A DNA stretch of 64,000 nucleotides from positions 736,001 through 800,000 of the forward strand of contig CAWEWF010000014.1 in NCBI GenBank assembly GCA_963812605.1, in the 5' to 3' direction. A program made the translations under genes and the position numbers. Position 1 is the stretch's first letter; the number at the start of each line of letters is the position of its first letter. Source of the stretch: an uncultured Verrucomicrobiae bacterium (lineage in GTDB: Bacteria > Verrucomicrobiota > Verrucomicrobiia > Palsa-1439). The notes below the pieces were generated by a model. It was not told the DNA's origin. It searched no databases and saw nothing but the letters and a program-made list of their open reading frames with translations. Below are positions 6,480 through 21,334 of this stretch, in pieces.

Positions 6480-6487
6480 CTCGATCT

Positions 6488-7588: not shown

Positions 7589-7593
7589 ACCGC

Positions 7594-10051
7594 ATGTCCT
7601 ACGCACCGGAACTCGAACGCCTCCTTGGTCAGCTCATTAGCGGCGATATCCTGTTCTTTCCGATCCGGCACCATAGTCCGGCCTGTGCCTGGCATCTGCA
7701 GCGGCTAATCGAGCAGTACCGGCGAACGTCGATCCTGGTGGAAGGCCCGGCCAACTTTACTCCGCTTATCCCGTTGATCTTACATCCGCGTACCCGCACT
7801 CCGTTTGCGGTCTACACTACTTACGTGGACACAACCCGTCGCGTCAACAAAAGCCTGGCTAAGGAGCGTGGTGATTTCGGTCCGGCGCGCTTTGCGGCCT
7901 ACTACCCCTTCTGTAACTATTCGCCGGAGTTGGTCGCCTTGCGCTCGGGAATAGCGGCGGGCGCGCGTCTGCAGTTCATCGATCTGGATTATCCTCGCCA
8001 GGTTCTCTCCGAGAAGCCAGCGGATGACCTTCCCGCAGCGCCCCGGGTCGATTCGTTGCTGGAGGAGCGCCATCTCAAACGCAGCGCGTATTTGAAACAA
8101 TTGGCCAAGCGGACCGGCTGTCGGGACCAGGACGAGTTGTGGGACCACTTGTTCGAGGTGAACTATGCCGAGGTTTCGACCGAGACTTTTGTAAAGAACG
8201 TCGCCGCCTACTGCTACATGGCGCGCCACGACTACCTGCCGGACGAACTGGCTGCCGATGGAACACGGGCGCGCGAACAATCAATGGCCAAAGCCATCCG
8301 GGAGGAACGGGCGGCGGGCCGCAGCGGAAACATCCTCGTTGTGACCGGTGGGTTTCACACCGTGGTGCTGCCTGATATGCTTCACAGTGAAACTGACGAG
8401 CAGAAGTTGCCGATACCCGACGGCGAGAGCATTTCGCCGGTACTGATCCGCTACAGCTTTGACCAACTCGATTCGCTGAACGGTTACGCCGCCGGCATGC
8501 CATCCCCGCACTATTACGATCAGTTCTGGGATCGGGCGATCGAAGGCCAGCCGCGCCCGTTCCTGGAAACCGCCGCGAACCTGCTTGTCGAGATCGGCCG
8601 GCTGACACGGGAGAAGTCATTGCCGAACGCGCTGTCCACCGCTGATGAAATCGCAGCCCTGGAGCAGGCGCGGCGCCTGGCGCTCTTGCGCGGTCACGTG
8701 GGCCCGACCCGCGAAGATCTGTTGGATGGCGTGCGCAGTTGTTTCGTCAAGGGTTCGATGGATGCCGAAGGCGCGGTCTTGATGGGGATCGCGCGGCACG
8801 TTCTCTCCGGCACGGCCATCGGCGATATTCCTCCCGAAGCCGGTGCGCCACCGTTGGTGGAGAACTTCCGCGCGGTGGCCATCGAACTGCGTCTCAACAT
8901 TACCGAGTCCGTGCGCCGCAAGCTCTCGCTGGACATCTACCGGAGCGTCGCACACCGGACAATCAGCCGCTTCTTCCATAGTTTGAGTTTTCTTCAAGCG
9001 CCCTTTGCGGCCCTGGTCGCCGGGCCGAACTTCGTGCAGGGCACGGGACTGCAGCGCCTCCAGGAACACTGGGATTACTTCTGGAGTCCACGCACGGAGA
9101 GTGCCCTGGTCGAAGCCTCGGTGTATGGTTCGACGGTTGAAGAGGCTGCCGCCAACCGACTGCGACAGGACGTCATCAATTTGGAGCAACAGGGCCGCGG
9201 CCGTAGCGCCCTGGAAGCGGTCAGGATGCTGGTCATGGCGTGCCGGATGGGGCTGCATCGGCATACGAAGCAGTTGCTCGATCTCATCGCCGGCAATGTC
9301 GTGGAGGATTCCTCTTTCGTGTCCGTCGTGCAGGCAATGAACCAGCTTTTGTTGCTGTGGCAGTCGCGCGAGCCGTTGGAAGCGCATCATCTGCCGGAGA
9401 TTCCATCCCTGTTGCGCATCGCCTACGAACGCGCGTGTTATCTCGTGCGCGGCCTTGCCAGTTCTCCGCAGGAAGAAATCTACAGCGTCCTCCAAGCCTT
9501 CAACACCATTCGCGAAGCGCTGGCCGCCGTGAAAGACGATCTTCTGGACGCGGACCTCTTCTGGCAGGAAGTGGCCGCGCTGCCCGCTATCCGCCCGGCC
9601 AATTCGGCGGTAGTGGGTGGCGCCGCCGGGCTCGTTATACGGCGACAACCGCCTTAGCGAGAAGATGTTGCTCGAAATGATGCTCGGTCATTTGGATGCA
9701 GCAACCTCCGACAACCGATCAAAGGTCGGATTCGTCATCGGGCTGCTGCGAACGTGCCGGGAGGTGGCCTGGCAACAACACGCGTTGCTCGAAGCCATCG
9801 ACCAACTTCTTGCCTCGTGGGACGAGCACGAGTTCATTCGTCTTTTGCCGGAGCTGCGGATTGCGTTCGCCGGCCTCACACCGCGTGAGACCGACCGCGT
9901 GGCCGGTGCCGTTGCCGGGCTACACGGGCAAAAGGATCTCGGTGAGTTGATTCATTACGACATCAACCAGGCCGCTTTGTCCTTTCATCTGAACGTCACG
10001 CAGGAAGTGCTGCGCAGTCTGGAGCACGATCAATTGGCTGACTGGGCATGA
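7594..10051 (+). CDS. DUF5682/YehM-like protein, split by a frameshift near 9640
   Basis: IRHHSPACA, LVEGP, VTGGFH and GYAAGMPSP motifs; C-terminal part continues in ORF 9617-10051. Confidence 0.8.
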
Positions 10052-11178
10052 GTGTGATCTCCTCCAATCCGTTGAGCCGGTGGCGGCTGGTGCTGGGCAA
10101 GTATGCCGCCGATCGCCTGCCGTCCGGGCTCTCGGAGACGGAACAACGCATCGAGACCGCTCTCGATTATCTGTACTCACGCGAGTATCGGGGCCGCGGG
10201 ATGCGCGAAAAGGAAAAGGAGCCGGGCTCACTGGATGCCTCCCAGTTGAATATCCCCGCCTGGCTCGCCGAAGTACGGGAACTTTTTCCGAAAGAGACCG
10301 TGGAAGTCATCGAGAAACACGCGCTCGACCGTTATGGCATGACGGAATTGGTCACCGACCGGGAGGTCCTGAAAAAGCTCCAGCCAAATCTCGATTTACT
10401 CAAGGCCATCCTCACGTTCCGCGGGCATATGAAAGAAGACGTACTCGCCGAAGCGCGGCGGCTGGTGCGGCACGTTGTCGAGGAGATCAAACTGAAAATG
10501 GAACCGGAAGTTCGACGGGCTTTGGCCGGCAAGCTCAATCGATTTCGGCATTCCAATCTCAAGGTTGCGCAGAATTTCGACTGGCGCGGCTCGCTGCGAA
10601 AGAACCTCAAGAATTATGACCCGATCCGGCAGAAGATCATAGTGCAGGACGTGCAATTCTTCTCGCGCAACGAACGCCGGCTGCCCTGGCACATTATCCT
10701 GTGCATCGATCAGAGCGGCAGCATGGCCAGTTCGGTCATCCACAGCGCCGTGATGGCGGGTATTCTGACGAGTCTGCCCATGCTACGGGTGAAACTGGTC
10801 GTGTTCGACACTTCGATCGTCGATCTCAGCGAGCATGTGGACGATTCGGTGGAAGTTCTGATGAACGTACAACTCGGTGGCGGCACGGACATCGGGCAGG
10901 CGCTGACCTATTGCGAAGGTTTGGTCGAGAACCCCAAACGCACGGTCGTGGTGTTGGTCAGCGACTTCGCCGAAGGCGCATCGCCGGCGCGGCTGCTGGA
11001 TACATGCCGACGCTTGCGCGAGGCCGGCGTCATCCTGTTGGGACTGGCTGCGCTCGACGAACAAGCCAACGCGTCCTACGACGTGAAGATGGCCGAACGG
11101 CTGGCTGAAATCGGCATGGAAATCGCCGCACTGACCCCGAAACGATTGGCCCAATGGCTGGCGAAAGTCATATCCTAG
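10048..11178 (+). CDS. VWA domain protein (YehP/CoxE-like)
   Basis: RWRLVLG N-terminus, MIDAS motif DQSGSM, LGGGTDI, VLVSDFAEG. Confidence 0.88.
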   Translation: MSVISSNPLSRWRLVLGKYAADRLPSGLSETEQRIETALDYLYSREYRGRGMREKEKEPGSLDASQLNIPAWLAEVRELFPKETVEVIEKHALDRYGMTELVTDREVLKKLQPNLDLLKAILTFRGHMKEDVLAEARRLVRHVVEEIKLKMEPEVRRALAGKLNRFRHSNLKVAQNFDWRGSLRKNLKNYDPIRQKIIVQDVQFFSRNERRLPWHIILCIDQSGSMASSVIHSAVMAGILTSLPMLRVKLVVFDTSIVDLSEHVDDSVEVLMNVQLGGGTDIGQALTYCEGLVENPKRTVVVLVSDFAEGASPARLLDTCRRLREAGVILLGLAALDEQANASYDVKMAERLAEIGMEIAALTPKRLAQWLAKVIS

Positions 11179-13257
11179 GCAAACTGCAAACGCTGCTGGT
11201 GTCGTTCGATGACAGAGCGTTTGAAGCGTTGGCGAGCCGTGGGCTGTTGCGACGCGCGCAGAAGGATTTGGAGGGCGGCGTTCCTGTCGAGATTACCGGC
11301 GATGTGCCCGCTGGTCTTGCGGTCAAGGTTGCCAATTTCACTGTTACACTTCCCGAAGCTGGTCCCGCGAAAGCCAAATGCACGTGTCGTTCCCCGGGCA
11401 TCTGTCAGCATATTCTGATGGCCTGCCTGTTTCTCCAACGCACCGCTGCACTCCCCAAGCAAGCTGACCTCCTGACAGTGGAAGCGACTACTACCGGACG
11501 CGGGCGCGATGAACTGTTGGCATTCACCGCCGAGCAACTCGGGCAATGGGCTAGCAAGCCGGCATTGCGGGCGGCGTTCGCATTGCTCGCGGCGCAACCA
11601 CCAATCCAGATGGAAACCAAAGGCGCGATCATTGTCCGTTTCCCTGATCACGGTGCGGAGTGCCGCTATGTTGCCGGTGGCGGATTGGATGGAATGGTTG
11701 TGACCGCACCGCAGGGTGCTTCCATGAAGTTTGCCGTGGCAGCGGTGTTGGCGTTTCAGCAGTCCCAGGGCCTCAAGCTACCCGAAGCCGCAACGGCGGC
11801 ACCTGCCCTGGCGGAAACCCGGGGCGCACCACGCACGCGAGATGAAGTCCTCGGTACCAGCCGTCAACTCCTTGAAGAGTCTGTGTGCGTCGGTCTTTCC
11901 CACCTCTCGATCTCATTTGAGCAGCGGTTTGCCACGCTGGCGGTTTCCGCGTTGGGAGTCAATCTTCCTCGATTGTCACTGGCGCTGCGCGGAATTGGCG
12001 ACGAGATTTCGCTGATCGTCAAGCGCGACGCGCAGGCTGATGAAGCGCGCCTGCTGCAATCAGTGTCACGCGCCCACGCACTTTGTCATGCTTTGCGTAC
12101 AACCATTCCCCCGCCACGAGCCGACTTGATCGGGTGGCATCGCACCCAATATGAGGAGGTCGGCCATTTGGAACTACACGGTGTCGCCGCCTACCCGTGG
12201 CGGACAAGTTCTGGTTACGAAGGATTAACGGTTCTATTTTGGGAGAACACAGCCTGCCCGGTGGTACTCGTGGTCGGAAGCCCGACCACGCCACCAAGCC
12301 GGCAGTTTCAATCCCCGCGACCGCTACAAACAAGAAAGTCCATGGCAGGGCGCGACCAGTCCTGACCAGCTTTCGCGCTCGAGCTTCAAGCTCATGCATG
12401 CGCGACGGAATCCCCTGGGCCGATTGTCTGCTTCTGCGAAGAGCCGAGCGTTGATCGTTGGCCCGACATCGCCCGTGACGCTCAACTTTGGCAATAAAAT
12501 CTTCTCGCACTGGAGTTCTCTCCAGCAGTACGCGTGCGAACTCTCGCCTATCGGTCTCGGGGAGTTCAATCCACTCGAGGAGATTGTGGTCTTGCAACCG
12601 GCAAACTGGGGCCGGCGACATTTCGATCAGGTTTCACAGACTTTCACCTGGGCCATCCTCGACGAAGACGGTGACGCGCTGACCCTGGAAGTGCGGTTTA
12701 ACGACCTGAACGACATCACCATCAAGTTTCTTGAGAATCTCAATCCCCGCACTCCGCGCGTGAGCGCGTTAATCGCCAAAATCTCGCGTACCGGCCTGAC
12801 AATCGCTGCGCAACCGATTTCGTTGGTCATGCCGGATGCGACGGGCACGGCGATTCTGAATCTTGGATTCGATGCCGCGCCCCGCCAGACGGTCCTGGCA
12901 AAGATAAAAGACCTGGTAAACACCATGGCTGACGAAGAGCCTCTGCTGGCTGATGAAGAGGGCGAGGCAGAGGAGTTCGTTCTTCTGGGTTCCAGCTTCG
13001 ATCAGCTCGTCACCAATCTGGAATCATTGCTTCAGAAGATCGCGGAACGCGGCTGCCGAACTCTTACTACGGTAGCCAGCCATGAACTGAGCGCGACCGC
13101 CGCAAACATGGAAGCCGCAGGGTTCAACATTCTTTCAAAAGCCATCCATCACTTGATCGGCAACACAAAGTGGCCAGCGCCGGATCTGCTCCAACTTCGC
13201 TACCTCTGCCTCGTTCATCGTCAGGCCGGTCAGCGAGTTGCTGCGCGCAGGACATGA
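11154..13257 (+). CDS. SWIM zinc-finger protein (YehQ-like), frameshifted near 12260
   Basis: CTCRSPGICQH SWIM motif; coding continues into ORF 12394-13257; start codon uncertain. Confidence 0.72.
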
Positions 13258-13373
13258 TTTGTCCATCGCATCTGACTGACAAACCAGATGCGGGTACAAG
13301 AAAAAAACTTTCTTGAATGTGTTGAGAAGGTAGAGGTTACACCGGTCTTTTCAATGTCGTGAACAAAAAGTTG

Positions 13374-13402
13374 TTGACGAATGACCCTTGGGAAGTTAGC
13401 TT
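13374..13402 (+). promoter_or_regulatory. Putative sigma70 promoter of the tRNA/RNA-repair locus
   Basis: TTGACG (13374-79), 17-nt spacer, TAGCTT (13397-402), A-tract upstream. Confidence 0.6.
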
Positions 13403-13424
13403 ACGCAAGTTTTTGAGGACAGAC

Positions 13425-13568
13425 ATGCGAACGCTAAGACCACAACGTAAATGCGCGACAGCGAGGATGCTTATATCCTCGTTGACCCGTAGTGGTCTGT
13501 TCCCGTCCTTTGTGTCATTAGGCCATTACGTCGCCAAAGATAACACGGGAGGGCCGGGAAGCAGGTAG
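13425..13568 (+). CDS. Putative 47-aa leader peptide (attenuator uORF)
   Basis: GAGGA Shine-Dalgarno at 13415-19; MRTLRPQRKC...GGPGSR*; last codons are complementary to the terminator 5' arm. Confidence 0.6.
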   Translation: MRTLRPQRKCATARMLISSLTRSGLFPSFVSLGHYVAKDNTGGPGSR

Positions 13569-13591
13569 TTGTCACGTCCAGATGTTCCGTG

Positions 13592-13624
13592 AACCCTGCT
13601 TCCGAAAGGAACGCAGGGTTTTTT
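13592..13624 (+). terminator. Intrinsic terminator (attenuator)
   Basis: AACCCTGC-TTCC-GAAA-GGAA-C-GCAGGGTT followed by a T tract. Confidence 0.85.
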
Positions 13625-13687
13625 ATTGTCGCTATGCCGAAAAACGAAAGGAATCACAGTTAAAATGAAGATTTAAGGTGAAAAGAA

Positions 13688-14049
13688 TGCCGCGCCACCA
13701 GCGTCAACTGGCAGCGCGGCGGGATCGGTCACTACAACAGGACTCTTGTGAGGGCCACTGAGGAGCAACCTTGTACAAGGTTAGCCTCCTTGGTGCGAAG
13801 GTGTCAAGGGCTCGCCCTTTGCCCGCCGAACTGTCCTGCCGGAGTTGAACGTTTCCCACACCAATCAATAACAACGCCAAGGGCTTCATGGGAGGTGTGC
13901 CCGAAACACCAAAACGTTCCACCGAGAAATCCCGTGGCCACGCCAGCGTCAGGCTGGTGTGAAGGTGTTCGTTCTTTGTTGTGATCAGGGCAGGAACACA
14001 GGGCAACCAATCGAGTGCCGCATGAGGCGGCATTGTGTTCCTGCCCCCA
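13688..14049 (+). ncRNA. Unassigned large structured RNA heading the tRNA array
   Basis: Nested helices: 13689-13720 hairpin; 13727-43 pairs with 13971-86; internal hairpins; terminal 13-bp stem followed by CCA; no convincing ORF. Confidence 0.6.
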
Positions 14050-14057
14050 TTTTCCGG

Positions 14058-14131
14058 GCGCTTGTGGTTTAGCAGCAGAACACCGCGTTGCCAACGCGGA
14101 GGTGCGGGTGCGACTCCCGCCGAGCGCTCCA
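14058..14131 (+). tRNA. tRNA-Gly(GCC)
   Basis: Cloverleaf, acceptor GCGCTTG/CGAGCGC, U73, CCA encoded, T loop TGCGACT. Confidence 0.88.
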
Positions 14132-14142
14132 ATTCCAGTGCT

Positions 14143-14216
14143 ACGGCGTGCGCCAGTTCGCGCAGTTGAGTCTCCAAAACTCGGCGTGGTTGGGGCGGCA
14201 CCAACACGCCGTGCCA
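14143..14216 (+). tRNA. tRNA-Trp(CCA), degenerate D arm
   Basis: Acceptor ACGGCGT/ACGCCGT, G73, anticodon loop CTCCAAA, T loop GGCGGCA, CCA. Confidence 0.75.
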
Positions 14217-14220
14217 GTTT

Positions 14221-14296
14221 GGGGACACATGTGCCGTAGCGGCGAGACTGCCTTGCAAGCAGTTTGTGGTGGGTGCAACTCCCACTGTCTCCACCA
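14221..14296 (+). tRNA. tRNA-Ala(TGC)
   Basis: GGGGACA/TGTCTCC with G3:U70, A73, anticodon loop CTTGCAA, CCA. Confidence 0.85.
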
Positions 14297-14308
14297 GTTC
14301 GGACCCGC

Positions 14309-14399
14309 GGGTGATGTTCCGGTCAACGGTCTGTAGAACCGTGGTCGCTAAAACAAGGTCGGAAGACGACGAGTGGAGCGTTACCACCATCACCCACCA
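14309..14399 (+). tRNA. tRNA-Tyr(GTA)-like, no D arm, enlarged variable arm
   Basis: GGGTGAT/ATCACCC, A73, CCA; anticodon arm ACGGT-CTGTAGA-ACCGT; T loop AGCGTTA. Confidence 0.7.
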
Positions 14400-14406
14400 G
14401 TTTCAC

Positions 14407-14482
14407 GACTCGGAAGAGGAACAGCAGACTCGCCTGCCTGTCTAGCGGGAGATAACGGGGGCAGCACCCGTCCGGATCGCCA
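14407..14482 (+). tRNA. tRNA-Asp(GTC)
   Basis: CCTGC-CTGTCTA-GCGGG, G73, T loop GGCAGCA, CCA. Confidence 0.8.
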
Positions 14483-14487
14483 TTTCG

Positions 14488-14562
14488 CGGGCACGAGGAA
14501 GATAGCAATCCGCCCGGTTTGGAACCGGGAGACACTCGGGGCAGAACCGAGGTGCCCGACCA
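14488..14562 (+). tRNA. tRNA-Pro(TGG)
   Basis: CGGGCAC/GTGCCCG, A73, CCCGG-TTTGGAA-CCGGG, CCA. Confidence 0.87.
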
Positions 14563-14569
14563 ATTTCCA

Positions 14570-14645
14570 CTCCCCGTAGTTCAGATTATAGAATGCCGAG
14601 CTTCTAACTCGGAGGTCGCAGGTGCGAGTCCTGCCGGGGAGACCA
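14570..14645 (+). tRNA. tRNA-Arg(TCT)
   Basis: CTCCCCG/CGGGGAG, CCGAG-CTTCTAA-CTCGG, CCA. Confidence 0.88.
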
Positions 14646-14653
14646 GTTTTGAT

Positions 14654-14728
14654 TCCATCGTGGGATAACAGTAGTCCACCGTCCTGTTAAGGCGAGAGGT
14701 CGTGGTGCGAATCCACGCGATGGAGCCA
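14654..14728 (+). tRNA. tRNA-Asn(GTT)
   Basis: TCCATCG/CGATGGA, G73, anticodon loop CTGTTAA, CCA. Confidence 0.87.
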
Positions 14729-14729
14729 G

Positions 14730-14821
14730 GGAGTCCAGGCCGATACAAGCTGGCGGCACTCGTCTTGAAAACGAGATCTGGCGCAAGCCAGAGGCGGGAG
14801 CATTACCTGCGGACTCCGCCA
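14730..14821 (+). tRNA. tRNA-Ser(TGA)
   Basis: GGAGTCC/GGACTCC, G73, long variable arm TCTGGC-GCAA-GCCAGA, CCA. Confidence 0.88.
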
Positions 14822-14853
14822 ATTCAGAAACAACAACCGAAGGAGATAAGGCC

Positions 14854-15033
14854 ATGTACACCACCAAGACAGAAACGGTCGCTCGGATCCCCATCCAACG
14901 CTGGCGAAATACGCGCTTTGTCGTACCGGTGCGGGAAACGCGACGCCATCGGTCGCTGGCAATACCGGATCCGCCACACCGGAAGAGGACGCGTCGCGGA
15001 TCATTCACCGAAACTGACGCGCGCGCCCCATAA
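14854..15033 (+). CDS. Small Arg-rich protein (59 aa) inside the tRNA array
   Basis: AAGGAG Shine-Dalgarno at 14840-45; MYTTKTETVARIPIQRWRNTRFVVPVRETRRHRSLAIPDPPHRKRTRRGSFTETDARAP*; too short for the ORF track. Confidence 0.5.
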   Translation: MYTTKTETVARIPIQRWRNTRFVVPVRETRRHRSLAIPDPPHRKRTRRGSFTETDARAP

Positions 15034-15075
15034 CGCGCATTGTTTACCATGCCTGTCGCAAACGATGCGCCCTTC

Positions 15076-15149
15076 CCTTCCGTAGCTCAAGAGCAGAGCG
15101 GTCGGCTGATAACCGACAGATCACGGAGCGTTACCGTGCGGAAGGACCA
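15076..15149 (+). tRNA. tRNA-Ile(GAT)
   Basis: CCTTCCG/CGGAAGG, GTCGG-CTGATAA-CCGAC, T loop AGCGTTA, CCA. Confidence 0.87.
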
Positions 15150-15151
15150 AC

Positions 15152-15226
15152 GGCTCGGAAGCTCTCGGAGGAGAGCGTCCCGCTGAAAACGGGAAAGGGG
15201 CGGTGCAACTCCGTCGCGAGCCACCA
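15152..15226 (+). tRNA. tRNA-Phe(GAA)
   Basis: TCCCG-CTGAAAA-CGGGA, A73, CCA. Confidence 0.86.
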
Positions 15227-15235
15227 CTTTGTTTT

Positions 15236-15309
15236 GTTCTCGAAGTGTAAGAGATCTGCACGTCCCGTTGCGAACGGGAAGGTTCGGGGTGCGAATCCCT
15301 GCGAGAACA
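15236..15309 (+). tRNA. tRNA-Arg(GCG)
   Basis: GTTCTCG/CGAGAAC, TCCCG-TTGCGAA-CGGGA; CCA not encoded. Confidence 0.83.
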
Positions 15310-15338
15310 CTTTACCCCGAATTCTTTCGGGCCAGTTT

Positions 15339-15415
15339 GCCTCTGTGGCCGAGACTGTCCAGGCACGGCTTTCGTAAAGCCGACCACATCGGTGCAATTC
15401 CGATCGGAGGCCCCA
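15339..15415 (+). tRNA. tRNA-Thr(CGT)
   Basis: GCCTCTG/CGGAGGC, CGGCT-TTCGTAA-AGCCG, CCA. Confidence 0.85.
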
Positions 15416-15422
15416 GTTTGCT

Positions 15423-15497
15423 GGTGACCGTGGTGTAAGAGCAGCACCGCAGACCGTGAATCTGCAGGAGCGGGTGTAAGTCCCGTCGGTCGCCCCA
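15423..15497 (+). tRNA. tRNA-His(GTG)
   Basis: G-1:C73 pair, GCAGA-CCGTGAA-TCTGC, CCA. Confidence 0.87.
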
Positions 15498-15505
15498 ATT
15501 CGTTC

Positions 15506-15578
15506 GTCCCGCGAGGGAGCCAGTGAACCCGCCTGTCTGCAAAACAAGCACTGTGCGGTGCGACACCGCAGCGGGACT
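15506..15578 (+). tRNA. tRNA-Cys(GCA)
   Basis: GTCCCGC/GCGGGAC, U73, anticodon loop CTGCAAA; followed by TCA. Confidence 0.8.
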
Positions 15579-15588
15579 TCAATTTCAT

Positions 15589-15663
15589 GCCTCCAAAGAA
15601 TAGACAGCGATTCGCGTCATCGGTAATGACGACAGCACAGTGCGATTCTGTGTGGAGGCTCCA
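15589..15663 (+). tRNA. tRNA-Thr(GGT)
   Basis: GCCTCCA/TGGAGGC, CGTCA-TCGGTAA-TGACG, CCA. Confidence 0.85.
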
Positions 15664-15670
15664 ATTCGAT

Positions 15671-15749
15671 GCGGCAGTGATGTTGAACAGAATGAGCATG
15701 GCTGCCTTCCAAGCAGCTCGTGTGGGTGCGACTCCCATCTGCCGCACCA
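15671..15749 (+). tRNA. tRNA-Gly(TCC)
   Basis: GCGGCAG/CTGCCGC, GCTGC-CTTCCAA-GCAGC, CCA. Confidence 0.86.
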
Positions 15750-15755
15750 CTTCGA

Positions 15756-15829
15756 CGCGGGTGAGTAGCGTGGCACTACAGGAGGCTCATACCCTCCAGA
15801 CGCCGGTTCAATTCCGGCACCCGCTACCA
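15756..15829 (+). tRNA. Initiator-like tRNA-Met(CAT)
   Basis: C1/U72 mismatch, GGAGG-CTCATAC-CCTCC; the only array tRNA with a canonical TTC T loop, paired with a GG D loop. Confidence 0.82.
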
Positions 15830-15836
15830 ATTTTCT

Positions 15837-15911
15837 CGCTCCGTAGCACAAACGCAGTGCGCCGGTTTCATACGCCGGAGATTGCCAGTGCGAACCTGGC
15901 CGGAGCGACCA
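15837..15911 (+). tRNA. Elongator tRNA with CAT anticodon (Met; Ile2 not excluded)
   Basis: CGCTCCG/CGGAGCG, CCGGT-TTCATAC-GCCGG, CCA. Confidence 0.8.
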
Positions 15912-15915
15912 GTTC

Positions 15916-15990
15916 GGGTCGCAAGCATTGCAAGCGATGCAGCGGATTCTTACTCCGCAGAACACGGGGCGGTACCGTGGCGGCCCACCA
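15916..15990 (+). tRNA. tRNA-Lys(CTT)
   Basis: GGGTCGC/GCGGCCC, GCGGA-TTCTTAC-TCCGC, T loop GGCGGTA, CCA. Confidence 0.84.
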
Positions 15991-15998
15991 ATCCATTC

Positions 15999-16073
15999 GC
16001 CTGCGTGGCCGAAAAGTCAGGCACCGGTTTTGTAAACCGACCCATGCAGGTGCGACTCCTGCCGCAGGCTCCA
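15999..16073 (+). tRNA. tRNA-Thr(TGT)
   Basis: GCCTGCG/CGCAGGC, anticodon loop TTTGTAA, CCA. Confidence 0.86.
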
Positions 16074-16079
16074 ATTGAT

Positions 16080-16154
16080 TGCCTCGTGGTGTAACCAGCG
16101 GCACATCCGTCTCTGAAACGGAAAGTCCGGGTGCAATTCCAGGCGAGGCAGCCA
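16080..16154 (+). tRNA. tRNA-Gln(CTG)
   Basis: U1:A72, G73, TCCGT-CTCTGAA-ACGGA, CCA. Confidence 0.87.
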
Positions 16155-16161
16155 TCGTCAC

Positions 16162-16236
16162 GCCGCACTAGCCCAATGCAGAGGCACCAGTCTTAGAAAC
16201 TGGACAGTCCTGGTGCAAATCCAGGGTGCGGTACCA
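16162..16236 (+). tRNA. tRNA-Leu(TAG), short variable loop
   Basis: CCAGT-CTTAGAA-ACTGG, 5-nt variable loop, A73, CCA. Confidence 0.85.
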
Positions 16237-16240
16237 ATTC

Positions 16241-16316
16241 GCTCCCGTAGCTCAAAGTATAGAGCGCCCGGCTTCGAACCGGGAGGTTGCAGGTGAGATT
16301 CCTCCCGGGAGCACCA
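16241..16316 (+). tRNA. tRNA-Arg(TCG)
   Basis: GCTCCCG/CGGGAGC, CCCGG-CTTCGAA-CCGGG, T loop TGAGATT, CCA. Confidence 0.86.
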
Positions 16317-16325
16317 ACGTCCGAA

Positions 16326-16397
16326 GCTCGTGTAGCCCAACGCAGAGGCAGTCGGCTTAAACCCGATCCAGTGCCGGTGCAATCCCGGCCACGAGCA
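16326..16397 (+). tRNA. tRNA-Leu(TAA), short variable loop
   Basis: GCTCGTG/CACGAGC, GTCGG-CTTAAAC-CCGAT; followed by CCG. Confidence 0.84.
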
Positions 16398-16402
16398 CCG
16401 AT

Positions 16403-16478
16403 ACCGACGTAGCCCAACAGCAGAGGCACCAAGCTCAAACCTTGGCCAGTGTGGGTGCGACTCCCTCCGTCGGTACCA
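16403..16478 (+). tRNA. tRNA-Leu(CAA), short variable loop
   Basis: ACCGACG/CGTCGGT, CCAAG-CTCAAAC-CTTGG, CCA. Confidence 0.85.
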
Positions 16479-16484
16479 ATTCAC

Positions 16485-16577
16485 GGAGCATGAACCGGGC
16501 AAGCGAACCGGGACTGTTTGCTAAACAGATCGACCCGCATCCAGCGGATTGAGGCGCAAGCCCTCCGTGCTCCGCCA
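16485..16577 (+). tRNA. tRNA-Ser(GCT)
   Basis: GGAGCAT/GTGCTCC, G73, anticodon loop TTGCTAA, long variable arm, CCA. Confidence 0.82.
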
Positions 16578-16587
16578 GTTCCTTCTC

Positions 16588-16676
16588 CCGCCCGTAGTTC
16601 AAAGAGAACCGTCCGCCTTATAAGCGGAATCGCACTGGATGAGTGCCAGGCCTCGGAGCGTTACCGAGCGGGCGGA
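16588..16676 (+). tRNA. tRNA with TAT anticodon (Ile UAU) and a long variable arm
   Basis: CCGCCCG/CGGGCGG, TCCGC-CTTATAA-GCGGA, variable arm GCACT-GGATG-AGTGC; no CCA. Confidence 0.8.
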
Positions 16677-16677
16677 T

Positions 16678-16755
16678 GGCCGTGATCGCGAAGCAGCTCC
16701 AGCGACCTGTCTTTCAAGCAGGATCCAGCGGGTGCGAGACCCGCCACGGCTGCCA
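16678..16755 (+). tRNA. tRNA-Glu(TTC)
   Basis: GGCCGTG/CACGGCT, G73, CCTGT-CTTTCAA-GCAGG, CCA. Confidence 0.85.
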
Positions 16756-16757
16756 AC

Positions 16758-16834
16758 GGACTCGAAGCCACAGCAGACCGGCACCGGACTTTTAATCCGG
16801 CAGGGTGAGGTTGCAACTACCTCCGGGTCCACCA
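16758..16834 (+). tRNA. tRNA-Lys(TTT)
   Basis: GGACTCG/CGGGTCC, CCGGA-CTTTTAA-TCCGG, CCA. Confidence 0.86.
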
Positions 16835-16860
16835 ATTTCGCTCGTATTGCCCAATGCGTT

Positions 16861-16934
16861 TGCCGAGTCGTCCAATAGTAGGACATCTCGCTTTGAACGA
16901 GAAGATCGTGGTGCGAATCCACGCTCGGCAGCCA
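16861..16934 (+). tRNA. tRNA-Gln(TTG)
   Basis: TGCCGAG/CTCGGCA, G73, TCTCG-CTTTGAA-CGAGA, CCA. Confidence 0.88.
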
Positions 16935-16939
16935 ATTCC

Positions 16940-17013
16940 CGCCCGATGGTGAAATAGGATCACGCCTGGCTTACATCCAGGAATCCGGGGAGCATAACCT
17001 CGTCGGGCGACCA
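16940..17013 (+). tRNA. tRNA-Val(TAC)
   Basis: CGCCCGA/TCGGGCG, CCTGG-CTTACAT-CCAGG, T loop AGCATAA, CCA. Confidence 0.86.
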
Positions 17014-17023
17014 GTTTGATGAT

Positions 17024-17109
17024 TTGCGGAAGTGAGACGGGAGTTCCTTCGGAGCTCAATCACCGAGCACTGGCCTGTTAAGCCAGCCTCCCGGCAGGAT
17101 ACTCCGCAA
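17024..17109 (+). ncRNA. Y RNA-like gene 1 (D arm plus GTT anticodon arm module)
   Basis: Ends pair (TTGCGGA/TCCGCAA); shares the AGTGAG..GGAGTT.CTTC scaffold; lies upstream of TROVE. Confidence 0.7.
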
Positions 17110-17123
17110 TGCTCTTTCGGCGA

Positions 17124-17255
17124 TTTGAGGTAGTGAGATCGGAGTTACTTCGCATGACAAGCGAGAGGTTGCCGGTTCGATTCCGGTCGCGGCCAGCAAT
17201 GGCTGCGTAGCTCAATGGTAGAGCGCTTACGTCTCTGATCGATTTTCTCCTCAAA
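17124..17255 (+). ncRNA. Y RNA-like gene 2 (YrlA-type permuted tRNA-like domain)
   Basis: Scaffold stem plus T arm GCCGG-TTCGATT-CCGGT, loop-closed acceptor CGCGGCCA-GCAA-TGGCTGCG, D arm GCTC-AATGGTA-GAGC. Confidence 0.82.
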
Positions 17256-17258
17256 ACT

Positions 17259-17358
17259 TTTTGGGGTAGTGAGATTCGGGTTACTTCATGGTCCTGTTGG
17301 TTCGAATCCAACCTTCAGCCTTCCGGCTGATGTTCCCGGGTCGGTTTACTCCTCAAAA
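17259..17358 (+). ncRNA. Y RNA-like gene 3 (T arm plus acceptor-like hairpin)
   Basis: Same scaffold; GTTGG-TTCGAAT-CCAAC, then TCAGCC-TTCC-GGCTGA. Confidence 0.75.
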
Positions 17359-17380
17359 CAATCCAAACACAACCAAATCC

Positions 17381-17477
17381 GTGAGGCAGTGAGGTCAGGG
17401 CTACTTCGAAACTGGGATGGGTGAAAACCCCACCAGTCTGGCCGCAAGGCCGTTTCCCCGGCCGGTTTACTCCTCAC
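17381..17477 (+). ncRNA. Y RNA-like gene 4 (two-hairpin module)
   Basis: Same scaffold GTGAGG-CAGTGAGGTCAGGG-CTACTTC...CCCCGGCC-GGTTTACT-CCTCAC; ends 21 nt before the TROVE start codon. Confidence 0.7.
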
Positions 17478-17498
17478 ACAACCTGAAAGGAGCACGCA

Positions 17499-18931
17499 AT
17501 GAGATTCAACCTGCTCAAGAGACGCCGCACGGGCGCCGATACCGTCAACTTCGCTGGAGGCGAGGCGTTCACGGAATCCCCAAAGCTGGAACTGGCGGCG
17601 CTAATGTTGACCGCGACACTGCAGAACGACTTTTATCGTTCCGCCAACGCCACTGCTACGCGCTTGAAGGAACTCATCGGCAAGATCGACGACAAGAAGT
17701 TTGTCGCCAAGACTGCGCTCTACGCCCGCAACAAGGCGGGGATGCGTTCGGTTTCACATCTGACTGCCGGTGAGTTGGCCCGCACCGTGAAGGGGCAGCC
17801 GTGGACTGCGAAGTTCTACGAACAAGTGGTCCGCCGCCCGGATGACGCGTTGGAAATCCTCGCGTACTACCTGGCGATGCACGGTCGGCCCATCCCAAAC
17901 GCGTTGAAGAAGGGCCTGGGCGCTGCCTTGGCGCGTTTCGACGAGTACCAGTTGGCCAAGTATCGCAAGAGCGCTGCGGAAATCTCGCTCGTGGACGCGG
18001 TAAACCTCGTTCACCCGAGACACACCGAGGCATTGAAGAAGCTGGTCAACGGCACTCTCGCGCCGGCAGAAACCTGGGAAACCAGACTGACGGAGGCGGG
18101 TGCGGCGGCGGAGTCGGAAGACGAACTCGCCGAGTTGAAGAAGGACGTGTGGACGAAGCTGATCGAGAGTCGCAAGCTCGGTTACTTCGCGCTGTTGCGC
18201 AACCTGCGCAACATTCTCCAAGCCGCGCCTGAGTCAATGGATGCGGCCATCACAATGTTGACGGATGAGAGGCTCATCCGGCGCTCGTTGGTGCTGCCAT
18301 TCCGTTATCCTCACGGCGCTCGAAGCAATGCAGGCGACTAAGCCTGCCGAATGTCAGCAAGGTACTCGTTGCTCTCAGCGAGGCGGTGGACAAGTCTCTT
18401 GTTAACGTGCCGCAGTTCGATGGCAAGACGCTGGTTGCGCTGGATGGCTCTGGTTCGATGCAGGGGCGTCCCCTGAAGATCGGCTCGCTGTTTGCCGCAA
18501 CGCTGGCGAAGGCCAACGATGCGGACGTAATGCTGTTCAGTAACGACGCGAAGTATGTCTCCCTGAACCACCGTGACAGCACGTTGACGCTGGCGCAGTG
18601 GCTGGAGAGCCAGGCCCAGTCGGCGGGAACCGACTTCCATTGCATCTTCCAGACGGCGAAGCGCGGTTATGATCGCGTGATCATCCTGTCGGATATGCAG
18701 GGTTGGATCGGTCACTACGCTCCGACCAAGACCTATGAGGCGTACAGGAGACAGTTCGGGGTTGACCCGAAGGTTTTCTCGTTCGATCTCAAGGGTTACG
18801 GCACGTTGATGTTCCCCGAACGCAGCATCTATTGTTTGGCCGGCTTCTCCGACAAGACAATGGACATGCTGAAGTTCCTCGACTCGGATAAGTCCGCATT
18901 GCTTCGAGAAATCGAGGCCGTCGAGTTGTAA
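17499..18931 (+). CDS. rsr: Ro60/Rsr TROVE-domain RNA-binding protein with C-terminal VWA; two apparent 1-nt insertions near 18309 and 18340
   Basis: VNFAGGEAF, YARNKAGMRS, FDEYQLAKY, ETWET, YFALLRNLRN, LPFRY, DGSGSM, GTDF, IILSDMQ. Confidence 0.88.
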
Positions 18932-18935
18932 CCTC

Positions 18936-18978
18936 GGGAGCTTCCTGACCACGGTTGGGAAGCTCCCTTCTCTTTCCA
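18936..18978 (+). terminator. Hairpin or possible terminator after TROVE
   Basis: GGGAGCTTCC...GGAAGCTCCC followed by TTCTCTTT. Confidence 0.55.
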
Positions 18979-19063
18979 GTAATTTGAAGCATCCGGCAAC
19001 GACAACCGAGCTGCGTCGTCTGTCATTACACAAATCAACCCGCTCGGAGAAAGGAGCCACATC

Positions 19064-19307
19064 GTGAGATTCAACATCCTGAAGAGACGCAGCACGAACG
19101 CCGATTCCGTCAACTTTGCCGGCGGGGAGGCATTTACCGAGTCGCCAAAGGTGGAACTGGCGGCGCTGATGTTGGGCGCAGGCAACCAGCTTGGTCTTGG
19201 GCAACCACCATTGACATTGGTTGCGTTTTCACTAATCCGCAATCGCGAAGTTCCTCGACTCGGACAAGACGGCGCTGCTGCGAGAAATCGAAGCGGTGGA
19301 GTTGTAA
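19064..19307 (+). pseudogene. Internally deleted second TROVE copy
   Basis: MRFNILKRRSTNADSVNFAGGEAFTESPKVELAALML matches the TROVE N-terminus; 19248-19307 encodes KFLDSDKTALLREIEAVEL*, matching its C-terminus. Confidence 0.85.
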
Positions 19308-19380
19308 ACAAACCCGGTGGAGGAGTAGCTTGAAGGCGTGCTCCTCCATCCCATTGAATGATAGGAAAGGAAACACCAAC

Positions 19381-20550: not shown

Positions 20551-20617
20551 AGGCAAGCTGCCCGCGGTTGGAGCGATGTCAGCCACATCCTGTGCATTGT
20601 TCCAACCTCCCCTTTTC

Positions 20618-20692
20618 GCTCCCATAGCTCAACAGACAGAGCCTTCCTCTCCTAAGGGAAAGATTTGGGTGCAACTCCTGATGGGAGCACCA
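20618..20692 (+). tRNA. tRNA-Arg(CCT), array type (T loop TGCAACT)
   Basis: GCTCCCA/TGGGAGC, TTCCT-CTCCTAA-GGGAA, CCA. Confidence 0.86.
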
Positions 20693-20746
20693 TTTATTTG
20701 GCGATCACAACAAATAGCGAACACCATCGAGGAACAGAGGAATGAT

Positions 20747-21334
20747 ATGAACGACATACTAAATAAAGCGACGGTATTGGTACTGAATCGCAACTGGCAG
20801 GCCATCAACGTGCGCACGCCGGCAGAAGCGTTTTGCCAGATGGCAATCAACGCGGCAACCGGCTTGGACATCGAGGGCGAGGATCGCATGGGTCCCGTCC
20901 CGTGGGATGGGTGGCTCAAGCTGCCGATTCGGCCCCACGATAACGCCGTCGGCACACCACGCGGACGTATTCGTGTGCCCACGGTCATCGTGTGCGCGAA
21001 CTACGCGTGGGTGCCCCAGAAGCGACCGAAGCTCTCCGCGCGGAACATCCGCGAGCGCGACGGTCACCGCTGCCAATACACCGGCAAAGTATTGCGCGCG
21101 GAAGAGGGCAGCATTGACCACGTCCTTCCCCGCTCACGCGGCGGGAAGACGACATGGGAGAACTGTGTCTTCGCCAGCAAGCAGATCAATACAAAGAAAG
21201 GCAATCGACTGCCCCAGGAAGCTGGGCTGCAACTCTTGGCGCGTCCCCGAGTACCGCGGGCGCTGCCGGTGACCCTGACCATTCGCAATGCCCACGGTAT
21301 TCGAGACTGGAAGCCCTTTCTGGGTGATTCATGA
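20747..21334 (+). CDS. HNH endonuclease (McrA-like)
   Basis: VLVLNRNWQA, RDGHRCQYTG, SIDHVLPRSRGGKTTWENCV...NTKKGNRLP. Confidence 0.9.
   Translation: MNDILNKATVLVLNRNWQAINVRTPAEAFCQMAINAATGLDIEGEDRMGPVPWDGWLKLPIRPHDNAVGTPRGRIRVPTVIVCANYAWVPQKRPKLSARNIRERDGHRCQYTGKVLRAEEGSIDHVLPRSRGGKTTWENCVFASKQINTKKGNRLPQEAGLQLLARPRVPRALPVTLTIRNAHGIRDWKPFLGDS

What the first reader, a model, noticed from the sequence alone, without database searches (positions are those of the whole stretch)
13688..13986. Unassigned ~300-nt ornate RNA at the head of the array
Seen: hairpin GCCGCGC-CA-CCAG-CGTCAA-CTGG-CA-GCGCGGC (13689-720) and a ~15-bp closing helix (13727-43 with 13971-86). The helix encloses CACTGAGGAG/CTCCTTGGTG capped by the palindrome AACCTTGTACAAGGTT, the hairpin AAGGG-CTCG-CCCTT, a junction closed by GAACGTTT/AAACGTTC with TCCCA/TGGGA and GGTGT-GCCCGAA-ACACC, and a second CCAGCGTCA hairpin (13939-61) repeating the first. 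Established: large ncRNAs of unknown function such as GOLLD and ROOL occur beside tRNA clusters. Inference: this is a divergent member of such a class or a new one.
Basis: partly seen in the sequence, partly recalled or inferred. Interest (0 to 1): 0.78.

Follow-up and report, generated by a model that had tools for sequence, protein, structure and literature searches.

The report
Structured leader RNA of tRNA-array operon
This is a real, conserved, folded RNA with no match in the RNA family library, but it looks like the front end of a long tRNA and RNA-repair transcript, built like a ribosomal RNA operon leader, rather than a free-standing giant RNA.

Summary
Homologs occur in Verrucomicrobiota MAGs and in soil, peat and wetland metagenomes, and most helices are backed by covariation. 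No Rfam family matches the region.

The element is composite:
- Hairpin 1 (13689-13720) belongs to an upstream cassette of a small ORF plus terminator. In sister genomes the same cassette precedes an ABC exporter gene.
- A three-way junction spans 13738-13838.
- A core of about 105 nt (13881-13986) carries a covarying pseudoknot.
- An invariant tail lies at 13961-13986.

The proposed 15-bp closing helix is not supported: it has no compensatory changes and its energy is at chance level.

The tail instead pairs with 20703-20728, which is 6.7 kb downstream, after the last tRNA and just before an HNH gene. This pairing recurs, with compensatory changes, in all 7 lineages whose sequence reaches the operon end. 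The tail contains GUUCUUUG, the boxA core of this genome's own rRNA operon, where boxA also lies inside a leader-trailer helix.

Best reading: a cis-acting, rrn-like leader of an operon carrying the tRNA array, Y RNAs, Ro60 and RtcB. The role of the pseudoknot core is unknown.

The parts
13374..13402 (+). Putative promoter: -35 TTGACG at 13374-79 and -10 TAGCTT at 13397-402
   Evidence: GTTGACGA is conserved in 6 of 6 aligned loci. The sigma-70 scan did not call it, so this is read by eye and is an inference.
13425..13568 (+). Small ORF of 47 aa (MRTLRPQR...GGPGSR*), with SD GAGGA at 13415-19. Its last codons, GGAAGCAGG at 13557-65, are complementary to the 5' arm of the terminator.
   Evidence: The frame is open with the same end in 15 of 15 loci where the motif was found. 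Indels among homologs come in threes. The complementarity is read from the sequence.
13594..13624 (+). Intrinsic terminator: CCCUGCUUCC / GGAACGCAGGG followed by UUUUUU
   Evidence: The hairpin is in the MFE structure. It is conserved in all loci. The simple terminator scan did not list it.
13689..13720 (+). Hairpin 1, part of the sORF-terminator cassette
   Evidence: 98.9% paired, with 4 pairs changed on both sides. Also present between the cassette and an ABC exporter gene in L007, L010 and L012.
13738..13838 (+). Three-way-junction domain: CAGGAC/GUCCUG closes the CACUGAGGAG...CUCCUUGGUG arm (with the AACCUU/AAGGUU tip) and the GCGAAGG...CCUUUGC arm (conserved GGUGUCAAG)
   Evidence: helices 3-8. 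Absent from the minimal forms L027, L032 and L040.
13848..13918 (+). Junction of AACGUU/AACGUU (13848-53 with 13913-18) and CCCACA/CAUGGG (13855-60 with 13887-92)
   Evidence: helices 9 (74% paired, no covariation) and 10 (89% paired, 2 pairs covary).
13881..13961 (+). Conserved core. Pseudoknot GGGC 13881-84 with GCCC 13899-902. P2 is GGUGU 13894-98 with ACACC 13906-10. P3 is CCAC 13919-22 with GUGG 13934-37, with an 11-nt loop CGAGAAAUCCC. P4 is the variable hairpin 13939-47 with 13953-61.
   Evidence: A2: 28 sequences, 25 distinct. CM R1 scores 65-136 bits on 28 loci.
13961..13986 (+). Invariant tail, the 5' strand of the long-range helix. It contains the boxA-like GUUCUUUG at 13971-78.
   Evidence: GUUCUUU is invariant in 28 of 28 sequences. 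Inverted repeat I1. Own rrn boxA sites.
13988..14046 (+). Spacer hairpin before tRNA-Gly(GCC) at 14058-14131. A hairpin is seen in the homologs read, but its sequence is not conserved, and there is no U-tract.
20703..20728 (+). Trailer, the 3' strand of the long-range helix. It lies after tRNA-Arg(CCT) at 20618-20692 and 18 nt before the HNH start codon at 20747.

Best explanation
The 13688-13986 stretch is the structured 5' leader of one long transcript. It is not a free-standing RNA.

Order along the transcript:
- promoter
- 47-codon leader ORF with an antiterminator/terminator pair
- hairpin 1
- three-way-junction domain
- pseudoknotted core
- tail
- about 25 tRNAs
- Y-RNA-like repeats
- Ro60 (TROVE plus vWA)
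- RtcB
- tRNA-Arg
- trailer
- HNH

Shown:
- The RNA is conserved and most helices covary.
- The core is the invariant module.
- The tail is complementary to the trailer 3-7 kb away in every lineage that can be checked, with compensatory changes.
- The tail carries the same GUUCUUUG as this genome's rrn boxA. In the rrn operon that boxA likewise lies in the 5' strand of a leader-trailer helix.

Inferred:
- The operon copies rRNA-operon logic. While it is being transcribed, the single-stranded boxA-like tail recruits NusB/NusE-type antitermination factors, so that RNA polymerase can cross several kb of untranslated, structured RNA without Rho termination.
- Once the trailer is made, tail and trailer form a duplex of about 20-26 bp. 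This brackets the tRNA, Y RNA, rsr and rtcB part for RNase III-type processing and separates it from the leader and from the HNH mRNA.
- Entry into the operon is gated upstream by the leader-ORF attenuator, which would couple expression to the state of translation.
- The pseudoknot core probably folds into a compact platform for a protein, or for RNA polymerase, next to boxA. Its partner is unknown.
For: Conservation and novelty:
- Rfam gives no hit.
- Homologs: 4 of 61 related genomes searched (G000 among the 61) hold the full leader, besides the window's own. 7 of 7 genome contigs pattern hits are Verrucomicrobiota MAGs. 24 of 27 metagenome pattern hits are true.
- Covariation is documented.
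- The many G.U pairs (for example GU in 12 sequences at one P4 pair) fit the + strand only.

Context:
- tRNA arrays follow the element in 19 of 20 loci scanned.
- TROVE, Ro60-type vWA, RtcB and HNH lie downstream. TROVE, the vWA ORF, RtcB and HNH recur in L028, RtcB in 5 further loci, and HNH in 5.
- A YrlA match lies at 17125-17257 (40.6 bits, below the gathering score of 69).

Tail and trailer:
- Inverted repeat I1 is 26 nt with 23 WC and 1 GU pair.
- The pairing is found in 7 of 7 loci that reach the operon end, at distances of 2972-7067 nt.
- Six positions change on both sides. Among them, U:A becomes C:G at 13980:20709 in L028 and L040, and C:G becomes U:A at 13970:20719 in L033.
- Duplex energies are -26 to -42 kcal/mol, against shuffled means of about -16.
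- Conserved sequence continues outside both arms: the core on the left and HNH on the right.

Comparison with the rrn operon:
- The own rrn operon has GTTCTTTGAAAA in its leader and GTTCTTTGACAA / GTTCTTTACAAA in the spacer.
- Its leader-trailer duplex (-52.6 kcal/mol) includes that boxA.

Attenuator.

RNA libraries:
- One metatranscriptome contig bridges 13512-13789, across the terminator.
- Others cover 13889-14047 and the first tRNAs, in 4 studies.

Literature:
- L-arrays occur in Verrucomicrobia, are linked with HNH and rtcB, and are induced by translational stress in Anabaena (PMC8421152, passages).
- The boxA consensus is GYTCTTTAANA (PMC5725501, passages).
Against: - No Nus-factor binding, RNase III cleavage, transcript end or readthrough was measured. 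The RNA contigs are of low depth (2-3.5), come from relatives at 90-99% identity, and may contain DNA.
- GYTCTTTR occurs 6 times in the window against 6.3 expected, so the match itself is not significant. The argument rests on its invariance and position.
- After GUUCUUUG the tail reads UUGU, not the AAAA/ACAA of the rrn sites or the AANA of the consensus.
- The boxA-like core lies inside a helix, so it can bind factors only before the trailer is transcribed.
- The Anabaena L-array has neither a boxA match at its head nor a comparable inverted repeat, so this is not a general L-array feature.
- In one lineage (L040) the duplex is weaker: 17 of 26 paired, and -26.4 kcal/mol, which some shuffles exceed.
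- 15 other loci end before the operon end and cannot be checked.
- P3 never varies, which partly reflects the search pattern that required it.
- The function of the pseudoknot core is not explained by this model.
Confidence: 0.6

Rival explanations
1. A self-contained, trans-acting large ncRNA of a new class (GOLLD/ROOL-like), closed by the local helix 13727-43 with 13971-86 and merely encoded beside tRNAs.
For: The MFE of the exact interval does draw that closing helix. The pairs are 85% conserved. The core is compact and pseudoknotted with many invariant unpaired bases.
Against: - The closing helix has 0 pairs with both-sided change in the tool count, and its energy is at chance level.
- The same strand has a far better, covarying partner 6.7 kb away.
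- Three lineages lack the whole 5' half.
- Hairpin 1 and the 5' strand of the 'closing helix' are homologous to the 5' UTR, SD and start region of an ABC exporter gene in sister genomes.
- No terminator follows the element.
- There is no Rfam hit.
Confidence: 0.1
2. The pseudoknotted core (13881-13961) is a sensor: a riboswitch aptamer, or the binding site of a specific protein or tRNA. It would decide whether the array behind it is expressed or how it is processed. This could coexist with the leader-trailer model.
For: - The core has near-invariant loops and junctions (AAACG, CGNGAAAUCC, GCCCGAA) around covarying stems, plus a pseudoknot.
- GGUGU occurs twice (13894-98 and 13964-68), and both copies can pair with ACACC 13906-10, which would allow a switch. 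L026 favours the second pairing, while L016 and L027 favour the first (read).
- The system concerns tRNA damage and repair.
Against: - No expression platform was found. The hairpin behind the tail has no U-tract and is not conserved in sequence, and no start codon follows.
- No known aptamer model matches.
- There is no evidence for a ligand.
Confidence: 0.15
3. The tail and trailer are DNA-level inverted repeats, either ends of a mobile or invertible cassette carrying the array, rsr and rtcB, or sites for the neighbouring HNH endonuclease. They would not be an RNA helix.
For: - The element is patchy: 6 of 47 genomes of the order (G000 included) and 0 of 150 other genomes of the phylum sample.
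- An HNH gene always abuts the trailer.
- Inverted repeats that bind one protein would also co-vary.
Against: - Conservation does not stop at the repeats. The core lies outside the left arm and HNH outside the right arm, and both travel with the array.
- No transposase or recombinase lies inside.
- The orientation is the same in all 7 lineages.
- G.U positions (13972:20717 in W and L033; 13971:20718 in L022; 13966:20723 and 13975:20714 in L040) are tolerated as in RNA.
- The genome's rrn operon shows the same arrangement of boxA inside a helix.
Confidence: 0.1
4. A self-cleaving ribozyme or dedicated processing signal that frees the 5' end of the tRNA precursor.
For: A compact pseudoknotted core with invariant unpaired bases, located upstream of RNAs that must be processed.
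Against: No ribozyme family matches at E <= 10. RNase P already defines tRNA 5' ends (established knowledge). No cleavage data are available.
Confidence: 0.05

Closest known systems
rRNA operon leader (boxB hairpin, boxA, leader-trailer helix processed by RNase III)
   Same: A hairpin is followed by GUUCUUUG, which lies in the 5' strand of a long-range helix. The partner strand lies behind the structural RNAs. In this same genome the 16S leader has exactly this layout. It heads a long untranslated operon. PMC10250234 (search-listing abstract only) names boxB, boxA and boxC and the leader-trailer helix.
   Different: It brackets about 25 tRNAs, Y RNAs and two protein genes instead of an rRNA. 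The bases after GUUCUUUG differ from the rrn sites. An extra pseudoknotted core and a three-way junction precede it. It is gated by a leader-ORF attenuator. Nus binding and RNase III cleavage are untested.
boxA in leaders of CRISPR arrays and of suhB
   Same: A boxA placed before untranslated or regulated RNA outside rrn operons. For suhB, PMC5725501 (passages). For CRISPR arrays, recalled from Stringer et al. 2020 and not read here.
   Different: Those are plain boxA sequences without a trailer partner or an associated pseudoknot domain.
GOLLD and ROOL large ncRNAs
   Same: Structured RNA of unknown function encoded beside tRNA genes (association recalled).
   Different: No match to any Rfam model. 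The element is much shorter and modular, and it is tied in cis to the operon by the tail-trailer pairing.
L-array (trn operon) of Anabaena PCC 7120
   Same: A long tRNA array linked with an HNH gene and, in other species, rtcB. It is induced by translational stress (PMC8421152, passages).
   Different: There, control is by direct repeats in the promoter. No leader RNA is mentioned. No boxA match at the head and no comparable inverted repeat were found on the Anabaena locus. HNH lies upstream there and downstream here.
Leader-peptide transcription attenuators (trp- or erm-type)
   Same: The upstream cassette has an SD, a short conserved ORF, a segment at the ORF end complementary to the terminator's 5' arm, and an intrinsic terminator. 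In sister genomes it precedes an ABC exporter.
   Different: The direction and signal of regulation are not known. The cassette lies outside the reported coordinates except for hairpin 1.
Bacterial Y RNA (YrlA)
   Same: It is in the same operon as Ro60. A YrlA-like RNA is present at 17125-17257.
   Different: The leader itself gives no YrlA or Y_RNA hit and lies 3.5 kb from rsr.

Membership tests
GOLLD / ROOL / other Rfam large ncRNAs | Match to the family covariance model | tested here: not met
   cmscan of the whole window at gathering score returns only tRNAs. cmscan of 13000-15100 at E <= 10 gives no hit within 13378-14057.
rrn-type leader | boxA sequence like that of the organism's own rrn operon | tested here: met
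   The 8 bases GUUCUUUG at 13971-78 equal the first 8 bases of the rrn leader site and of the site before the 23S. They are invariant in 28 of 28 homologs as GUUCUUU. The bases after position 8 differ, and the 8-mer is not enriched in the window.
rrn-type leader | Leader strand complementary to a trailer behind the structural RNAs, kept by compensatory change | tested here: met
   7 of 7 checkable lineages, 17-24 of 26 positions paired, and 6 positions with both-sided change.
rrn-type leader | Binding of NusB/NusE and antitermination; RNase III cleavage of the helix | not testable with these tools
   Needs biochemistry or end-mapping.
Riboswitch | Conserved aptamer with covarying stems | tested here: inconclusive
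   The core has the look of one, but no ligand or known class was found.
Riboswitch | Expression platform (terminator or SD sequestration) directly downstream | tested here: not met
   The hairpin at 13988-14046 has no U-tract, its sequence is not conserved, and a tRNA rather than an ORF follows.
Y RNA (YrlA) | Match to the YrlA model, within a few kb of rsr | tested here: not met
   The YrlA hit is at 17125-17257, not in the leader.
L-array (long tRNA array, PMC8421152) | Long array of tRNA genes linked with HNH and RNA-repair genes | tested here: met
   19 tRNA genes by ARAGORN in the window, of which 17 lie in 14058-16934 and one further at 20618. Rfam adds 3 more (15152, 15424, 16940). RtcB and HNH lie downstream.
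Terminal inverted repeats of a mobile element | Homology between genomes ends at the repeats; a transposase or recombinase lies inside | tested here: not met
   The core and HNH, both outside the repeats, are conserved with the array. The genes inside are TROVE, vWA and RtcB.

The most novel reading that the evidence does not exclude
A tRNA-array and RNA-repair operon that has adopted the architecture of an rRNA operon. A translation-sensing leader-ORF attenuator opens it. A previously undescribed pseudoknotted RNA next to a boxA converts RNA polymerase into a termination-resistant form, or senses tRNA or ribosome status. A leader-trailer helix spanning 3-7 kb then packages about 25 unusual tRNAs, Y RNAs, Ro60 and RtcB as one processed unit. 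On this reading the pseudoknot core would be a new class of regulatory or antitermination RNA.
Probability: 0.3. Interest if true: 0.85.

Novelty: new variant of a known kind. Interest (0 to 1): 0.7.

Why it matters
Long tRNA arrays are known to be switched on under translational stress, but how several kb of untranslated RNA are transcribed and processed has not been described. In the paper library no paper pairs 'leader-trailer' or 'boxA' with a tRNA-array term; the two papers holding boxA beside another of the terms are a Rho review with leader-trailer and a phage-genome paper with one 'tRNA array' mention. The L-array paper does not mention a leader.

An rrn-like leader, a boxA and a leader-trailer helix around an operon of tRNAs, Y RNAs, Ro60 and RtcB would extend Nus-type antitermination and RNase III packaging to RNA-repair systems. 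It would also give a concrete, mutable handle, namely the tail-trailer compensatory pairs. The invariant pseudoknot core is a well-defined new motif for structure probing.

Tried and rejected
- Phage origin: blastn of 13300-14060 against the phage collection found nothing.
- Own-genome copies: the leader and the sORF cassette are single-copy.
- Coding reading of the leader: rejected, because single-base indels occur in the core.
- A proximal closing helix, AACAA 13870-74 with UUGUU 13976-80, was modelled in CM R1. It is 85% paired with few compensatory changes, its energy is at chance level (-10.7 against -9.8 +/- 2.3), and it would cross two other helices in the long form.
- CUUCAU with GUGAAG pairing was rejected: changes at 13961-63 are not compensated (read).
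- My own helix scan on a MAFFT alignment was noisy because of G.U-rich sequence. RNAalifold gave only a partial structure. mafft-qinsi was not installed.
- CM search of 150 other genomes of the phylum found nothing (stricter filters, 24 candidates scored per genome), so no more distant homologs were gained.
- Generality in other L-arrays: the Acaryochloris plasmid HNH locus showed no gap for an array in its gene table (RNA genes are not listed there and no tRNA scan was run). The Anabaena delta-plasmid trn operon has 24 tRNAs but no GYTCTTTR at its head, and only a weak 15-nt, 80% inverted repeat near its two ends.
- RNA runs: only small shares of words (0.04-0.09) were found, and contigs only, so no ends, strand or level can be told. 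The parts without cover say nothing.
- L017 extends 554 nt past rtcB into another gene and shows no trailer there, so it cannot be judged.
- Supplementary files of papers were not opened. The supplementary figures and tables of PMC8421152 on L-array neighbourhoods might bear on whether verrucomicrobial arrays were examined.

Full report
**What is there.** The window is part of a 4.17-Mb, 15-contig genome. Pattern hits in named genomes place the element in Verrucomicrobiota MAGs: all 7 of 7 hits, one of them labelled Methylacidiphilum.

The element lies between an intrinsic terminator (13594-13624) and tRNA-Gly(GCC) at 14058. That tRNA opens an array of 17 ARAGORN-called tRNA genes up to 16934, with one more at 20618. 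Rfam adds three more tRNAs.

Behind the array lie:
- four Y-RNA-like repeats (family D8; a YrlA match of 40.6 bits at 17125-17257, below the gathering score of 69)
- a TROVE ORF and a Ro60-type vWA ORF
- RtcB
- an HNH gene

This is an 'L-array' in the sense of PMC8421152. Passages of that paper say such arrays occur in Verrucomicrobia, are linked with HNH and rtcB, and are induced by translational stress in Anabaena.

**Is it a known RNA?** No. Rfam 15 gives nothing in 13378-14057, either at gathering score or at E <= 10. The phage collection holds nothing similar.

**Is it conserved and structured?**
- DNA search of 61 related genomes (G000 included) found the whole leader in three genomes of the same genus (about 86% identity) and in one genome of another family (72%). 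Seven further matches covered only the upstream cassette or, in G016, also hairpin 1. Three short matches (23-30 nt) are likely chance.
- A pattern from the conserved core found 27 metagenome loci. Three of them (L037, L039, L042) have no flanking similarity and are not matched by the covariance model, so 24 are true.
- I built CM R1 on 23 non-redundant cores. It matched 28 of the 37 sources I gave it. I left out 9 near-identical duplicates, and 9 of the sources I gave (3 chance hits and 6 cassette-only loci) did not match.
- R1 found the element in 6 of 47 genomes of the order (G000 included) and in none of 150 other genomes sampled from the phylum. It is always single-copy. It is therefore a patchy, accessory element.
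- Of 20 related loci scanned, 19 carry tRNA genes. L032 has none called, and only about 2 kb of it lies downstream.

**Structure.**
- On 17 full-length sequences, 85 proposed pairs are 86.5% paired, against 37-46% in slid controls. 21 pairs show changes on both sides, against 8.8 +/- 1.9 in shuffles.
- On the 28-sequence core alignment (25 distinct rows), the variable hairpin P4 covaries at 9 of 9 pairs and P2 at 2 of 5.
Variants are AGGC/GCCU in L043, AGGA/UCCU in the L027 family, and G.U or U.G in L028 and L016. The model did not include this pseudoknot, so the alignment was not fitted to it.
- P3 never varies, but the search pattern required it.
- Frequent G.U pairs fit the + strand. Folding energy does not distinguish the strands.

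**The element is composite.**
1. *Upstream cassette.* In six genomes of the same genus that lack the array at this place, the sORF-terminator cassette stands directly before an ABC-type exporter gene. In three of them it is followed by hairpin 1 and by a GAUCGGUUAC...AAGGAC stretch, or a variant of it. This ties 13689 to about 13745 to that cassette (hairpin 1 recurs there; for the stretch after it the likeness is read by eye).
2. *Minimal forms.* Three lineages (the L027 family, L032 and L040) have the terminator followed within 30-60 nt by the core alone. The core plus tail (13881-13986) is therefore the constant module, and the three-way junction (13738-13838) is an accessory.

**The closing helix and the real partner of the tail.**
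- The proposed closing helix has no pair with a both-sided change. Its energy is no better than shuffles: -16.6 against -13.8 +/- 3.3 kcal/mol.
- A repeat search over 13300-21400 gave as its best inverted pair 13961-13986 with 20703-20728: 26 nt with 23 Watson-Crick and 1 G.U pair.
- The second arm lies between the last tRNA (20618-20692) and the HNH start codon at 20747.
- The same complementarity is present in every lineage whose sequence reaches the operon end: W, L018, L021, L022, L028, L033 and L040. Distances are 2972-7067 nt, and 17-24 of 26 positions are paired.
- Six positions change on both sides. Examples are 13980:20709, where U:A becomes C:G in L028 and L040, and 13970:20719, where C:G becomes U:A in L033.
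- Fifteen other loci end too early to be judged.
- The conserved core lies outside the left arm and the conserved HNH gene outside the right arm, and no recombinase lies inside. I therefore read the pair as an RNA leader-trailer helix and not as ends of a mobile cassette.

**The rrn parallel.**
- The tail contains GUUCUUUG. GUUCUUU is invariant in 28 of 28 sequences.
- The genome's own rRNA operon has GTTCTTTGAAAA in the 16S leader, just after a GC hairpin. It also has GTTCTTTACAAA and GTTCTTTGACAA in the spacer.
- The 16S leader, boxA included, forms a -52.6 kcal/mol duplex with the spacer behind the 16S.
- The gamma-proteobacterial boxA consensus is GYTCTTTAANA (PMC5725501, passages).
- The array leader thus repeats the layout of hairpin, boxA and leader-trailer helix seen in this organism's rrn operon.
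- The 8-mer itself is not enriched, and the bases after it differ. Nus-factor binding is therefore an inference.

**The gate upstream.**
- The 47-codon ORF (13425-13568) has an SD and is open with the same end in 15 of 15 loci. Its indels come in threes.
- Its last codons, GGAAGCAGG, are complementary to the 5' arm of the terminator. A further hairpin (CACGGGA with UUCCGUG) lies between them.
- This is the anatomy of a leader-peptide attenuator. Its signal and direction are not shown.
- One metatranscriptome contig runs from 13512 to 13789 across the terminator. Others cover the core, the spacer hairpin and the first tRNAs. These contigs are of low depth, come from relatives, and may include DNA.

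**Limits.**
- The role of the pseudoknot core is not explained.
- A sensor role is possible: GGUGU occurs twice, and both copies can pair with ACACC. However, no expression platform follows.
- The Anabaena L-array shows neither feature, so the arrangement is specific to this verrucomicrobial lineage.
- No paper in the library pairs leader-trailer or boxA with a tRNA-array term; the only two boxA overlaps are a Rho review and a phage-genome paper.

**Verdict.** This is a real, new, conserved structured RNA. It is most likely a cis-acting, rrn-like operon leader and not a GOLLD/ROOL-type RNA.

Noticed in passing
window 13374-13624; L007-L012: A promoter, a 47-aa sORF and a terminator whose 5' arm is complementary to the ORF's last codons. 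The same cassette precedes an ABC-type exporter gene in six genomes of the same genus. This makes it a portable, attenuator-like control unit.
   Followed up: partly
window 14058-17010 and 20618-20692: The array tRNAs have T-loops reading U-G-C-G/A-A, with G where the near-universal U55 stands. The D-loops I read (three tRNAs shown) lack the GG pair. Family D1 has 11 copies of GGGTGCGACTCCC-like T-arms. Read by eye, and not compared with the housekeeping tRNAs.
   Followed up: no
window ~14143-14216, ~14221-14296, ~14309-14399: Three CCA-ended tRNA-like genes not called by ARAGORN. By eye the anticodon loops read CCA (Trp), UGC (Ala) and GUA (Tyr, with a long variable arm). Rfam gives only a weak tRNA-Sec hit (26.6 bits) for the second. 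A homologous Trp gene is called in L017 and L027.
   Followed up: partly
window 17023-17480: Four tandem repeats beginning GAGGUAGUGAG. The last three end in UUUCUCCUCA or UUACUCCUCA just before the Ro60 gene (families D8 and D12). One scores 40.6 bits on Rfam YrlA, below the cut-off of 69. They are likely Y RNAs.
   Followed up: partly
window 17499-18931 and 19065-19307: Ro60 is read as two ORFs, TROVE (280 aa) and vWA (181 aa), 44 nt apart, and likewise in L028. A second, internally deleted copy of the gene's first 115 nt and last 61 nt lies at 19065-19307 (families D4 and D10).
   Followed up: no
window 2727-12365: A cluster of DUF4132/HEAT, MoxR-type AAA_5, DUF5682, VWA_CoxE and SWIM proteins lies directly upstream of the leader cassette. 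A link with the RNA-repair operon was not examined.
   Followed up: no
L017 ~5220-5560 (minus strand): Between the leader and tRNA-Gly of this homolog there is an insertion of about 330 nt, bounded by inverted repeats of about 27 nt (tactgaccagacggtggtataggatac). It looks like a MITE (by eye).
   Followed up: no
L056 1290-1350 and 3126-3190 (own rrn operon): The 16S leader boxA (GTTCTTTGAAAATTG) is part of a -52.6 kcal/mol leader-trailer duplex with the spacer behind the 16S. Two more boxA-like sites lie in the spacer.
   Followed up: yes
window 13941-13967 with 18569-18595; 13687-13708 with 18427-18445 and 18583-18602: Hairpin 1 and hairpin P4 share GCCAGCGTCA (13697-13706 and 13942-13951). 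The reverse complement of its first nine bases (GACGCTGGC) occurs once inside the Ro60 vWA ORF (18587-18595); a second site there (18427-18434) matches only CCAGCGTC. These show as inverted repeats I2-I4, 78-84% complementary. This may be chance.
   Followed up: no
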